Shown here: positions 15,001 through 18,000 of the stretch, piece by piece
Position numbering within the stretch: the stretch's first letter is position 1
Layout: the number at the start of each line of letters is the position of its first letter
From: Escherichia coli O127:H6 str. E2348/69
Lineage (GTDB): Bacteria > Pseudomonadota > Gammaproteobacteria > Enterobacterales > Enterobacteriaceae
Length of the DNA stretch: 64,000 nucleotides
Reading direction: 5' to 3' (one strand)
Assembly: GCF_000026545.1 (NCBI RefSeq)
Contig: NC_011601.1
Made by a program: the position numbers

Positions 15001-18000
15001 TATCAACTGCCACCCGAATACCGTCAAAACTTGACGTCCAACCAAGAATTATTGAGTTGTAAACTCAACGCAATGATCTGGTTGGTATAAATGTGACATA
15101 TGTCATGAATCGACTAGTTGAGATAGTCAAGATGGGCTTGCTTGACATCATCACCACAACCGGAGCCAACAATGGCAGATTGCGTTACCCAGATTTGATA
15201 AAGGCATTTTAGCCTGACATAACTATGCACTGTATCGTCGCCGTATTCCCGCATCAACAGAGACCACAGCCCGAGAGGGAGACTCCTCTGCGCGAGTGTG
15301 CGGGGATAATCAAAAACGATACACACCGGGGTTTACCGTGTTAACGGAGCGCGGCGTTGTCCCCTCATGGTCGCTGGTCCGGTGCGATGGTGGAAGAAAC
15401 CGGACGATGTGTTACCTCGCAAGCTCTGTTATGTCATGTGTCTGATTTGTGATTTAAGTCGGATAATTGTCATTGCCATTAAGCAGAGGATTGATGACCG
15501 ACAGGGCTGCATTGTTAGAATAAGACTTATTCTTATCTATGCCGGGAATAAAAATGAAAAGAAATCTTCCGTTAATTATTTTGTTGTCTTCTTTGGTTAT
15601 GGGCTGTACGCAACATAAAACAGATATGCCTCGACAGTTGGTTAAGGCATTACCACAATATCCGGCCTATGCCGCGGCAAATTATATAAAGGGACGGGTT
15701 GATGTGAAGTTTGATATTGGTGCTGATGGTACTGTCACCCGAATTGAGTTTATCCGTTCAGAGCCGCACCATCTGTTTGATGAGCAGGTTGTAAAGGCGA
15801 TGGCAAAATGGCGATTTGAGAAGGACAAGCCGCGTAAAGGCGTGAAGAAAACATTTATCTTTAGTCCTTCAGCACCCTGATTATTTTATCAGAAGTTAAT
15901 TATCACTCTGTTGCTATTCAGTACATCCCTGCAGGGTAAAGTCTTGTTTCGCCGGATATGAAGATGAAATATTGTTAGAAGACAGTAGCTACCGGTTCCT
16001 GTAACCGAACGTTCATTTCTCGTTATTTTTCATGCTGGCCGGGCGCAGGTGCTTTGCATCTGTTGCCAGCCTTCTCCTGCAGGCTTCAATAACCCATGCC
16101 GAAAAATTACCCGATCCCTTACGTTCAAGGGCAATATGGATTTGATTAATCATCTGGTTTGGGAAGCTTTATTTTTTGATGACATTGTGTTTTTCCGTGT
16201 TCAGTGCTGCTGATTTGTATTGTCTTAAGATGTCTTTACGTTAAGTTGACACAGATCAATTAATGCATGACTTGGACAAAATTGATTATTTGTCGTGGTT
16301 TTATGGTGTACGTGGGATGTGTGATGGTATTTATATAAATGATAATTATTATCATTTTATTGGGTCCTTTCCGGCGATCCGGCAGGCTACGGGGCGGCGA
16401 CCTCGCGGGTTTTCGCTATTTATGAAAATTTTTAGGGAAAAATCAGATCCGTTCTTCTTTTTTTAACTGTTTGATTATCAATAGAATTTTAAAAATATAA
16501 AAGGATCTGACAAAGGCTGTTTTTGTTAGAAAACGCCATTTTCAGATCCTTTCTGGTTCCCGGGGGAGTGTATGAACGTCAATAAGAAAAAACTGGCCGA
16601 TATTTTTGGCGTTGATGTCAGGACCATCACCGCCTGGCAGAGTCAGGGGTTACCACTAGTTTCTGGTGGAGGGAAAGGGACTGAATCAGTTTTTGATACA
16701 ACTGCTGCCATTCAGTGGTATGCGCAGAGGGAAGCTGATATTGAAAACGAAAAACTCCGTAAAGAGATCGAGGATTTGAGGGCTGCCAGCGAATCAGACC
16801 TTCAGCCCGGCACCATTGATTACGAACGTTACCGACTGACGAAGGCACAGGCCGATGCACAGGAGCTGAAAAATGCTCGTGAGGAAGGCCTTGTCCTCGA
16901 GACGGAGTTATTTACCTACATCTTTCAGCGAGTGGCACAGAATATATCAGGGATCCTTGTCCGTGTCCCTCAGACACTGCAGCGTAAATACCCTGATATA
17001 TCACCCGCACATCTTGATGCTGTGAAAACTGAAATCGCGAAAGCATCCGATGTGGCTTCTGAAGCCGGTGAGAATGTGCGCAGGTGGATTGATGATTTCA
17101 GACGAACTGAGGGCGGCTAATTCTGCAGGAGCGATAGCAACCGGCCTCCTTGCGCTAAAAATTCCTGTCCCTCTGACGACAGTTCAGTGGGCAGATCGAC
17201 ATTATTACCTTCCGAAAGAGTCATCTTACACCCCGGGGCGGTGGGAAACACTGCCGTTTCAGGTTGCCATCATGAACAGCATGGGGAATGACCGGATCCG
17301 CACTGTTAATCTGATTAAATCTGCCCGTGTTGGTTATACAAAGATGTTGCTGGGAGTGGAGGCTTATTTTATTGAGCATAAATCACGCAACAGCCTTCTT
17401 TTCCAGCCCACGGATTCTGCTGCTGAAGATTTTATGAAATCTCATGTGGAACCCACGATCAGGGATGTGCCGGTTTTACTCGATCTTGCACCGTGGTTTG
17501 GGCGTAAACATCGTGATAATACCCTCACGCTGAAACGCTTTTCATCGGGCGTCGGTTTCTGGTGCCTGGGCGGCGCTGCCGCCAAAAACTACCGTGAAAA
17601 ATCCGTGGACGTGGTCTGCTATGACGAACTTTCCTCGTTCGAGCCGGATGTCGAAAAAGAGGGCTCGCCAACCCTGCTGGGGGATAAGCGTATTGAGGGG
17701 GCGGTGTGGCCAAAATCCATTCGCGGCTCGACGCCTAAAATCAAAGGCACCTGCCAGATCGAAAAAGCGGCCAACGAGTCGGCGCATTTCATGCGTTTTT
17801 ATGTGCCCTGCCCGCACTGTGGGGAGGCGCAGTATCTGAAATTTGGCGATGAGTCCACGCCTTTTGGGCTTAAATGGGAGAAGGACAGTCCCGAAAGCGT
17901 TTTCTACCTCTGTGAACATCATGGCTGCGTGATCCATCAGTCTGAGCTTGACCAGAACAACGGGCGGTGGATCTGTGAAAACACGGGCATGTGGACCCGT

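What the first reader, a model, noticed from the sequence alone, without database searches (positions are those of the whole stretch)
15330..15880. Prophage lipoprotein that is essentially a free TonB C-terminal domain
This ~108-aa product has a lipobox (LVMGC) followed by a domain closely paralleling the C-terminal receptor-binding domain of E. coli TonB. It is a moron between the lysis cassette and cos with a putative own promoter (TGTTAGAAT). Periplasmic TonB C-terminal fragments are known to act as dominant-negative inhibitors of TonB-dependent uptake, so this may be a superinfection-exclusion or colicin-protection factor, which to my knowledge is not an established mechanism.
Basis: partly seen in the sequence, partly recalled or inferred. 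Interest (0 to 1): 0.7.

Follow-up and report, generated by a model that had tools for sequence, protein, structure and literature searches.

The report
Prophage lipoprotein copying TonB's receptor-binding domain
A small gene in a defective E. coli prophage, present in about 30% of complete E. coli genomes, encodes an outer-membrane-tethered copy of the domain TonB uses to grip nutrient transporters; it most likely works as a decoy that blocks phages and bacteriocins needing TonB, but nobody has tested this.

Summary
Window 15554-15880 (+) encodes a 108-aa protein with a lipoprotein signal peptide (lipobox LVMGC, Cys18, Thr at +2), a 7-residue linker and a TonB C-terminal domain. Support for the domain: Pfam TonB_C E=2.9e-15, 41% identity to E. 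coli TonB 153-230, and an AF2 model 1.0 Å from TonB in the BtuB complex. It has no membrane anchor and no proline-rich rod, so it is not a TonB.

The window is E. coli E2348/69. The gene lies between the lysis cassette (complete Rz/Rz1) and cos/terminase, behind a conserved extended -10 element.

Two alleles occur in 1615 of 5426 complete E. coli genomes and in phage 21, under purifying selection (dN/dS 0.13). Diverged relatives hold the same slot in Klebsiella and Salmonella prophages. Others are plasmid cargo, next to a TolA-domain-III lipoprotein or upstream of a colicin immunity gene. Several non-E. coli members carry Fur boxes.

Ten literature searches found no functional study, and PADLOC has no match.

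The best reading is an OM-tethered competitor of TonB that protects lysogens from TonB-dependent phages and bacteriocins. This is plausible and easy to test, but unproven (confidence about 0.5). The gene is already annotated; the mechanism would be a new variant of lipoprotein superinfection exclusion.

The parts
15494..15521 (+). Sigma-70 promoter-like site: -35 ATGACC (15494-15499), 16-nt spacer containing the extended -10 TG at 15513-15514, -10 TAGAAT (15516-15521)
   Evidence: Consensus scan, 9/12 with TG. ATTGTnAGAATAAGAC is conserved with the phage 21 allele. Not shown to be active.
15544..15547 (+). Shine-Dalgarno GGGA, 6 nt before ATG 15554
   Evidence: Read from the sequence. The equivalent site is annotated as the RBS in phage 21.
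15554..15880 (+). CDS, 108 aa: lipoprotein with a TonB C-terminal domain (WP_000828067.1)
   Evidence: dN/dS 0.13 against the phage 21 allele.
15554..15607 (+). Lipoprotein signal peptide, residues 1-18 (MKR / NLPLIILLSS / lipobox LVMGC; the Cys18 codon is 15605-15607). Residue +2 is Thr, so there is no Lol-avoidance Asp and outer-membrane sorting is predicted.
   Evidence: Read from the sequence. A lipobox with S/T/A at +2 is conserved in 12 of 15 family members aligned.
15608..15628 (+). Short linker TQHKTDM (residues 19-25) between the lipid anchor and the domain
   Evidence: The first 20 residues of the AF2 model average pLDDT 54; the folded part starts with strand E28-30. The TonB alignment starts at P26.
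15629..15865 (+). TonB_C domain, residues 26-104, aligned with E. coli TonB 153-231. The YP motif (Y36 P37 = TonB Y163 P164) and the aromatic core F53, F75, W86, F88, F103 (= TonB F180, F202, W213, Y215, F230) are kept. TonB Q160 is L33 here and R166 is Y39.
14082..14531 (+). Context: i-spanin Rz, with the embedded o-spanin Rz1 (14263-14478). The prophage therefore has its own complete spanin pair.
   Evidence: PHROG 13 E=5.7e-72 and PHROG 3198 E=4.4e-28; RefSeq 'lysis protein'.
16393..16404 (+). Context: cosN cohesive-end sequence GGGCGGCGACCT. The Nu1-type small terminase follows at 16572-17120.
   Evidence: Read from the sequence; PHROG 57 E=1.9e-62.

Best explanation
[quoted passage not shown] There a 7-residue tether holds a free TonB C-terminal domain against the periplasmic face of TonB-dependent transporters.

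It has no membrane anchor, no proline-rich rod and no ExbB/ExbD coupling, so it cannot transmit force. The most likely action is competition with host TonB for TonB boxes, those of FhuA, BtuB, FepA, Cir and similar transporters and possibly those of incoming group B colicins. Trapping host TonB itself is an alternative route to the same result.

The outcome would be damping of TonB-dependent entry: irreversible adsorption of T1/phi80-type phages and import of group B colicins, microcins and albomycin. That would benefit the lysogen and so the prophage.

Expression would come from its own promoter in the lysogen. In intact relatives it would also come from the Q-antiterminated late transcript, because the gene is co-oriented with lysis and packaging genes.

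Shown here: domain identity, fold, lipoprotein signal, genomic slot, spread, purifying selection.
Inferred: lipidation and OM location, TonB-box binding, protection phenotype, promoter activity.
For: 1. It is a bona fide TonB CTD and nothing else.
2. Lipobox with non-Asp +2 and a short linker, conserved across relatives of 34-90% identity.
3. Precedent: overexpressed periplasmic TonB domain inhibits TonB-dependent iron import in E. coli (Howard et al. 2001 J Bacteriol 183:5885, as cited in PMC9841981).
4. Precedent: phage OM lipoproteins Llp and Cor act on FhuA from the periplasmic side.
5. The gene is selected, not decaying. dN/dS is 0.13. It is present in 1615 of 5426 complete E. coli genomes, at near-full length in 1611. 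It is intact in this otherwise degraded prophage.
6. The slot is conserved while the neighbours change. Rz or lysozyme lies upstream in 58 of 61 IMG/VR loci, followed by either a Nu1-type or an HNH/HK97-type packaging module. The slot is the same in a Klebsiella phage, a Salmonella prophage and a 34%-identical relative with a GH19 endolysin.
7. Conflict-type neighbourhoods on plasmids. One is 3-5 kb from a lipoprotein carrying TolA domain III. Another is a secreted TonB_C gene 68 bp upstream of a colicin immunity gene on four Serratia plasmids inspected, of differing typing. A third is beside QatB/KAP-NTPase genes that look like a Qat defence system.
8. Fur 7-1-7 boxes lie about 30 nt upstream of the start in several relatives: 0, 1, 2, 3 and 3 mismatches, against 3 of 220 control upstream regions with 3 or fewer. 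This ties expression to the state in which TonB-dependent transporters are derepressed.
Against: - No experiment exists, and none was found in ten full-text searches.
- A fusion of the domain to the BtuB Ton box through a GS linker did not dock in AF2: peptide pLDDT below 50, no strand. There was no positive control, so this is inconclusive.
- TonB residues known to contact receptors are not conserved: Q160 is L33 and variable across the family, R166 is Y39.
- Blocking TonB would cost the host iron and B12 uptake.
- The two E. coli alleles have no Fur box.
- The colicin next to the Serratia relative has a colicin-A-like, Tol-type translocation region, so that module is not simple self-protection.
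- Some relatives are in ordinary chromosomal contexts.
- No PADLOC match.
Confidence: 0.5

Rival explanations
1. It is a lysogenic-conversion fitness or virulence factor that tunes, rather than blocks, TonB-dependent physiology, with no role in excluding phages or colicins. Examples would be modulating iron or B12 uptake, or FecA-type surface signalling, in the gut.
For: It occupies the slot where lambda and phage 21 carry bor, and phage 21 carries both genes. It is enriched in pathogenic and commensal gut E. coli, including EPEC, STEC and Nissle 1917. Fur boxes in relatives point to iron physiology. Some relatives are chromosomal rather than on mobile elements.
Against: A force-less TonB domain has no obvious way to promote uptake. 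The plasmid neighbourhoods are conflict-type: colicin immunity, TolA-III lipoprotein, Qat.
Confidence: 0.2
2. It is a lytic-cycle function like T5 Llp. Made late from the pR' transcript, it inactivates a TonB-dependent receptor in the dying cell and its debris, so that progeny virions are not wasted.
For: The gene is co-oriented with, and lies between, the late lysis and packaging genes. Llp is an OM lipoprotein that acts on FhuA from the periplasm.
Against: Docking on a TonB box is not known to close the external phage-binding face. The receptor of these phages is unknown, and the J C-terminus matched only uncharacterised tail tips. The gene persists intact in a prophage that cannot make virions and on plasmids. 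It has its own promoter-like element.
Confidence: 0.1
3. It is an envelope tether or stabiliser. The TonB/TolA-like domain would bind peptidoglycan or another periplasmic partner and link it to the outer membrane, giving stress or serum resistance.
For: It is an OM lipoprotein with a periplasmic domain, an architecture like Pal or Lpp. TonB and TolA C-terminal domains are homologous folds, and TolA domain III hits appear lower in the Foldseek list. A TolA-III lipoprotein sits nearby on plasmids.
Against: The closest sequence and structure matches are TonB domains in transporter complexes, not peptidoglycan binders. No peptidoglycan-binding motif was detected.
Confidence: 0.08
4. It is a lysis protein, a spanin, as the PHROG family label says.
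For: PHROG 1267, 'Rz-like spanin', matches full length at E=3.4e-42. It is a lipoprotein next to the lysis cassette.
Against: The prophage already has a complete Rz/Rz1 pair, as does phage 21. There is no C-terminal transmembrane segment as in a unimolecular spanin, and the gene is not embedded in or adjacent to an i-spanin gene. The domain is TonB_C. Relatives occur on plasmids and chromosomes without lysis genes. The label most likely came from position and the lipobox.
Confidence: 0.03
5. It is a decaying fragment of a captured tonB gene with no function, as in the old annotation 'partial tonB-like membrane protein'.
For: Older annotations call it a partial or fragmentary TonB.
Against: dN/dS is 0.13. 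A lipoprotein signal has been acquired and is conserved across relatives down to 34% identity. It is full length in 1611 of 1615 carrier genomes. The promoter element is conserved.
Confidence: 0.02

Closest known systems
C-terminal domain of E. coli TonB (residues ~150-239; PDB 1U07, 2GSK, 2GRX)
   Same: 41% identity over 78 residues, with the same beta-alpha-beta-beta-alpha-beta fold (rmsd 1.0-1.4 Å). The YP motif and aromatic core are conserved.
   Different: It has no N-terminal transmembrane helix, no proline-rich spacer and none of the last ~8 TonB residues. It is anchored to the opposite membrane by a lipid. Q160 and R166 equivalents are changed.
Engineered periplasmic TonB fragments (Howard et al. 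2001, cited in PMC9841981)
   Same: A free TonB periplasmic domain exported to the periplasm. Such fragments inhibit TonB-dependent iron import in E. coli.
   Different: Those are laboratory constructs, soluble and overexpressed. This is a natural, widespread, lipid-tethered gene product of mobile elements whose effect is untested.
Superinfection-exclusion lipoproteins Llp (T5) and Cor (phi80, N15, mEp phages)
   Same: Small phage-encoded lipoproteins of the inner leaflet of the outer membrane that act on a TonB-dependent transporter (FhuA) from the periplasmic side.
   Different: The fold is unrelated: the Foldseek PDB hits shown (top 50) contain only TonB and TolA domains as meaningful matches and no Llp chain. 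Llp works allosterically on one receptor. A TonB mimic would address the TonB box common to all such transporters.
Lambda Bor (lipoprotein moron between the lysis genes and cos)
   Same: The same genomic slot and the same lipoprotein nature. Phage 21 carries bor and the TonB_C gene side by side.
   Different: The strand is opposite and the fold and presumed function (serum resistance) are unrelated. No Bor-like gene was found in the 80 close loci scanned.
Plasmid-borne lipoprotein with TolA domain III (e.g. WP_032416767.1), uncharacterised
   Same: The same design: a lipobox plus the free C-terminal domain of an envelope force transducer. It lies 3-5 kb from the TonB_C lipoprotein on the same Klebsiella and Pantoea plasmids.
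   Different: The domain is TolA III, not TonB_C, and the function is equally untested.

Membership tests
TonB_C domain family (Pfam PF03544 / TIGR01352) | Significant profile match above the curated threshold | tested here: met
   PF03544 E=2.9e-15. TIGR01352 57.1 bits against a cutoff of 27.1.
TonB_C domain family (Pfam PF03544 / TIGR01352) | Three-stranded sheet with two helices, as in solved TonB C-terminal domains | tested here: met
   AF2 core pLDDT above 95. Foldseek 2gsk_B rmsd 1.0 Å, TMt 0.92.
TonB_C domain family (Pfam PF03544 / TIGR01352) | Conserved YP motif and aromatic core residues | tested here: met
   Y36 and P37, plus F53, F75, W86, F88 and F103, align to TonB Y163, P164, F180, F202, W213, Y215 and F230.
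TonB energy transducer (functional TonB protein) | N-terminal cytoplasmic-membrane anchor that couples to ExbB/ExbD | tested here: not met
   The N-terminus is a cleavable lipoprotein signal. All TonB equivalog models fall far below their cutoffs, for example 74 bits against 315.
TonB energy transducer (functional TonB protein) | Proline-rich periplasm-spanning spacer | tested here: not met
   Only 7 residues separate Cys18 from the domain.
Bacterial outer-membrane lipoprotein | Signal peptide with a lipobox [LVI][ASTVIM][GAS]C within the first ~35 residues | tested here: met
   MKR-NLPLIILLSS-LVMGC18. By hand check it fits the PROSITE PS51257 pattern as I recall it. It is conserved in relatives.
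Bacterial outer-membrane lipoprotein | No Asp at +2 (Lol avoidance), so sorted to the outer membrane | tested here: met
   +2 is Thr, and S, T or A in relatives. This is a sequence rule only.
Bacterial outer-membrane lipoprotein | Actual lipidation and outer-membrane localisation | not testable with these tools
   Needs globomycin or palmitate labelling and membrane fractionation.
Llp/Cor superinfection-exclusion lipoproteins | Sequence or fold homology to Llp/Cor | tested here: not met
   The PDB Foldseek search returns only TonB/TolA domains as meaningful matches among the 50 hits shown, and no Llp chain.
Llp/Cor superinfection-exclusion lipoproteins | Protects cells against phages that use a TonB-dependent transporter | not testable with these tools
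   Needs plating assays.
Spanins (PHROG 1267 label) | o-spanin gene embedded in, overlapping or adjacent to its i-spanin gene; or a unimolecular spanin with a C-terminal transmembrane segment | tested here: not met
   A separate complete Rz/Rz1 pair lies 1 kb upstream. The C-terminus is a soluble TonB_C domain.
Phage moron (autonomous transcription unit between conserved modules) | Own promoter and terminator, variable presence between otherwise syntenic phages | tested here: inconclusive
   A promoter-like extended -10 is conserved. No terminator-like site was found downstream of the gene. Presence and absence vary among lambdoid phages: only 15 of 50,697 phage records carry it.

The most novel reading that the evidence does not exclude
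Mobile elements of Enterobacterales (prophages and plasmids) deploy exported copies of the C-terminal domains of both envelope force transducers, TonB and TolA. These copies are usually lipid-tethered to the outer membrane. They would serve as a general class of 'transducer-mimic' immunity proteins that jam the import route shared by many phages and bacteriocins, rather than masking a single receptor. In some lineages they are switched on by Fur exactly when TonB-dependent receptors are derepressed.
Probability: 0.35. Interest if true: 0.8.

Novelty: new variant of a known kind. Interest (0 to 1): 0.62.

Why it matters
If the decoy reading holds, about 30% of sequenced complete E. coli genomes carry a prophage gene that can blunt every TonB-dependent entry route at once. 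Carriers include EPEC, STEC, UPEC and the probiotic Nissle 1917.

Practical consequences would follow in three areas:
- Phage therapy, because many therapeutic and model phages use FhuA, BtuB, FepA and similar receptors.
- Colicin- and microcin-based antimicrobials.
- Siderophore-antibiotic conjugates such as cefiderocol-type 'Trojan horses', which need TonB.

It would also show molecular mimicry of a host energy-coupling hub by mobile elements, with a parallel TolA version. Finally, it would provide a natural, compact inhibitor of the TonB-TonB box interaction, which is already being pursued as a drug target (PMC9841981).

Tried and rejected
1. PHROG label 'Rz-like spanin'. Rejected because Rz/Rz1 are present and the domain is TonB_C.
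2. AF2 on a domain-(GGGGS)6-BtuB Ton-box fusion, to look for beta-augmentation. The peptide stayed disordered.
3. Fur box at the window gene's own promoter. The best 19-mer has 6 mismatches and the best 7-1-7 has 5, which is at background. The 8-1-8 palindrome AGAATAAG-A-CTTATTCT (15517-15533) over the -10/start is not conserved in phage 21.
4. Linking carriage to receptor type through the J tail-tip C-terminus. It matched only uncharacterised Stx and ECOR phage tips, so nothing was learned.
5. BFVD viral fold library: no significant hit.
6. PADLOC: no hit.
7. The search for related loci with the 16-sequence alignment failed because no stretch was conserved enough. With 7 sequences it returned only near-identical E. 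coli prophage loci.
8. Literature: ten full-text searches found no functional study, and targeted reads of seven papers added nothing on function. Howard et al. 2001 (PMC99666) is not held.
9. The Serratia colicin neighbour as a TonB-dependent colicin. It has a TonB-box-like DSMTVTG, but its N-terminal 100 residues resemble the Tol-dependent colicin A, so I do not claim self-protection.
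Full report
**What is at the coordinates.** The + strand carries an ORF at 15539..15880. The start with a Shine-Dalgarno (GGGA 15544-15547) is ATG 15554, giving MKRNLPLIILLSSLVMGC|TQHKTDM-PRQLV...SPSAP, 108 aa. RefSeq annotates the same product as WP_000828067.1, 'TonB family protein'. The DNA is 100% identical to E. coli E2348/69 (EPEC), and the window is that chromosome.

**Domain identity.**
- Pfam TonB_C matches at E=2.9e-15.
- TIGR01352 scores 57.1 bits against a cutoff of 27.1, while every full-length TonB equivalog model falls far below its cutoff.
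- The best PDB sequence hits are Salmonella and E. coli TonB C-terminal domains (E about 1e-16, query 26-104).
- A pairwise alignment gives 41% identity to TonB 153-230. Y163/P164 and the aromatic residues F180, F202, W213 and F230 are identical, and Y215 is replaced by Phe. Q160 is Leu and R166 is Tyr here.
- An AF2 model has a mean pLDDT of 87.5, with the core above 95. It superposes on TonB from the BtuB and FhuA complexes at 1.0-1.1 Å, and TolA domain III appears only far down the list.

**What it lacks, and what it gained.**
- It has no TonB membrane anchor and no proline-rich rod.
- The N-terminus is instead a lipoprotein signal: K2 and R3, a hydrophobic core, and the lipobox L-V-M-G-C18. 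Thr at +2 predicts Lol sorting to the outer membrane by the sequence rule.
- Only seven residues separate the lipid anchor from the domain.
- In the solved complexes the TonB domain sits against the periplasmic face of the barrel. A short OM tether places this copy in that region, whereas TonB must reach it across the periplasm (inference).

**Genomic setting.**
- The order is holin, RrrD lysozyme, Rz with embedded Rz1, a small minus-strand ORF, the TonB_C lipoprotein, a minus-strand DUF3950 gene, cosN (GGGCGGCGACCT, 16393-16404), Nu1-type small terminase, large terminase.
- Rz and Rz1 are complete, so the PHROG 1267 label 'Rz-like spanin' (E=3.4e-42) is best explained as a mislabel.
- The prophage is defective. 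ISEc13 and IS200C sit between the SASA-family esterase gene (8980-10830 by the RefSeq annotation) and the holin, and the head-to-tail region is deleted. The TonB_C gene is nonetheless intact.
- A sigma-70-like site with an extended -10 (TGTTAGAAT, 15513-15521) precedes the gene. The block ATTGTnAGAATAAGAC is conserved with the 70%-identical phage 21 allele.
- No terminator-like site follows the gene.

**Spread and selection.**
- The coding sequence is found in 1615 of 5426 complete E. coli genomes, at 80% coverage or better in 1611. There are two allele groups: the window type (95% identity or more, about 413 genomes) and the phage 21 type (about 72%, about 1200 genomes, including Nissle 1917).
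- Among cultured phages it occurs in phage 21, JLK-2012, ev017, Perceval, Stx1a phages and one Klebsiella phage.
- dN/dS between the two E. coli alleles is 0.13.
- In 80 IMG/VR loci, Rz or lysozyme lies upstream on the same strand in 58 of 61 loci with enough flank. Downstream is either a Nu1-type or an HNH/HK97-type packaging module. The DUF3950 gene follows in 77 of 80.
- Relatives of 34-51% identity occupy the same lysis-to-terminase slot in other lambdoid prophages with different lysis and packaging genes.

**A wider family.**
- An exhaustive HMMER search found many short proteins (about 107-133 aa) aligned over their full length. Most have a lipobox and S, T or A at +2.
- Some are in plain chromosomal settings.
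- One is on a plasmid-like contig beside QatB/KAP-NTPase genes that look like a Qat defence system.
- PLSDB holds 121 plasmids with a match.
- On Klebsiella and Pantoea IncF plasmids the gene is isolated cargo between IS elements. A 144-aa lipoprotein lies 3-5 kb away; its residues 59-143 are TolA domain III (PDB 1s62 E=1.4e-17; TIGR02794 77 bits).
- Free TolA-C-terminal-domain genes match on 1333 plasmids.
- On four Serratia plasmids inspected, with differing replicon and relaxase typing, a Sec-secreted TonB_C-only protein lies 68 bp upstream of, and co-oriented with, a colicin immunity gene, with the pore-forming colicin convergent.
- That colicin has a TonB-box-like DSMTVTG, but its N-terminal region resembles the Tol-dependent colicin A. 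I take the linkage as support for a conflict role only, not for a specific target.

**Fur boxes.**
- A perfect TGATAATnATTATCA lies 29 nt before the start of the Salmonella member.
- Versions with 1, 2, 3 and 3 mismatches lie 30-58 nt upstream of four other diverged members.
- Only 3 of 220 control ORF-upstream regions reach 3 mismatches or fewer, and at least one of those is a family member itself.
- The two E. coli prophage alleles have no such box.
- This links part of the family to the iron-starvation state in which TonB-dependent receptors are most abundant. It does not apply to the window gene.

**Mechanism.**
- The best-supported reading is competitive inhibition of TonB-dependent steps by an OM-tethered TonB domain.
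- Overexpressed periplasmic TonB domain is reported to inhibit TonB-dependent iron import in E. coli (Howard et al. 2001, via PMC9841981).
- My recollection, not checked here, is that such fragments also reduce sensitivity to phi80 and colicin M.
- Llp and Cor show that phages use OM lipoproteins to disable FhuA from the periplasm.
- Nothing here demonstrates binding. An AF2 fusion to the BtuB Ton box did not dock (uncontrolled).
- The cost to iron uptake, the non-conserved Q160 and R166 positions and the chromosomal relatives all count against the reading.
- I put it at about 0.5. Rivals are a fitness or iron-tuning factor (0.2), an Llp-like lytic-cycle role (0.1), an envelope tether (0.08), a spanin (0.03) and a dead fragment (0.02).

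**Novelty.**
- The gene itself is known and annotated: 'TonB C-terminal domain protein' in phage 21 and 'TonB fragment' in Perceval.
- Ten full-text searches and targeted reads found no functional work. PADLOC has no model for it.
- If the mechanism holds, it is a new variant of lipoprotein-mediated exclusion that uses mimicry of the host transducer.
- The search library lacks most subscription journals, so an existing report cannot be excluded.

Noticed in passing
window 16340-16354: A perfect Fur-type 7-1-7 palindrome, TGATAATTATTATCA, lies about 38 bp left of cosN (16393-16404), next to the cosQ-equivalent GGGTCCT. Phage 21 has TGATAATTATTCTCG at the same place. It also overlaps an IHF-like TATCATTTTATTG. 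It is the only 7-1-7 match with 2 mismatches or fewer in the 64-kb window. Its function is unknown.
   Followed up: partly
L097:676-1110 (Pantoea dispersa plasmid NZ_CP045217.1); same gene on many Klebsiella plasmids: A 144-aa lipoprotein (lipobox LITAC) whose residues 59-143 are TolA domain III lies 3-5 kb from the TonB_C lipoprotein on the same plasmids. Relatives match on 1333 PLSDB plasmids, including small 10-12 kb Klebsiella plasmids and ~90-kb E. coli and Shigella plasmids.
   Followed up: partly
L100:3935-6432, L104, L105, L106 (Serratia plasmids): A conserved module: a secreted TonB_C-only protein, then a colicin E1-family immunity gene, with a convergent pore-forming colicin. The colicin combines a TonB-box-like DSMTVTG, a colicin-A-like N-terminal region and a colicin Ib-like pore domain.
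   Followed up: partly
L096:5922-5940, L013, L095, L004, L007 (upstream of TonB_C lipoprotein relatives): Fur-box matches with 0-3 mismatches to TGATAATnATTATCA lie 29-58 nt upstream of the start codons of several diverged family members. They are absent from both E. coli prophage alleles.
   Followed up: partly
window 11265-13234 and about 20789-21237: The prophage is defective. ISEc13 and IS200C transposase genes sit upstream of the holin. The head protease gene is truncated and abuts a truncated NlpC/P60 tail gene, so most head and tail genes are deleted.
   Followed up: no
window 15517-15533: An 8-1-8 perfect palindrome, AGAATAAG-A-CTTATTCT, overlaps the -10 element and the likely transcription start of the TonB_C gene. 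Its right half is deleted in the phage 21 allele. It may be an operator or may be chance.
   Followed up: partly
window 14648-14878 (- strand): A 76-aa hydrophobic ORF (PHROG 14357, unknown function; RefSeq hypothetical WP_157778920.1) lies between Rz and the TonB_C gene on the opposite strand. A 12-bp-stem terminator-like hairpin sits at 14604-14630.
   Followed up: no
L014:5348-11737: A 129-aa TonB_C lipoprotein relative (P0065) sits on a plasmid-like contig (ParM/StbA partition genes) immediately upstream of KAP-NTPase, QatB and TatD-like genes that look like a Qat defence system.
   Followed up: no
PHROG family 1267: This PHROG family is labelled 'Rz-like spanin' but matches a TonB_C lipoprotein over its full length (E=3.4e-42). 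The label looks like an annotation error that will propagate to phage genome annotations.
   Followed up: yes
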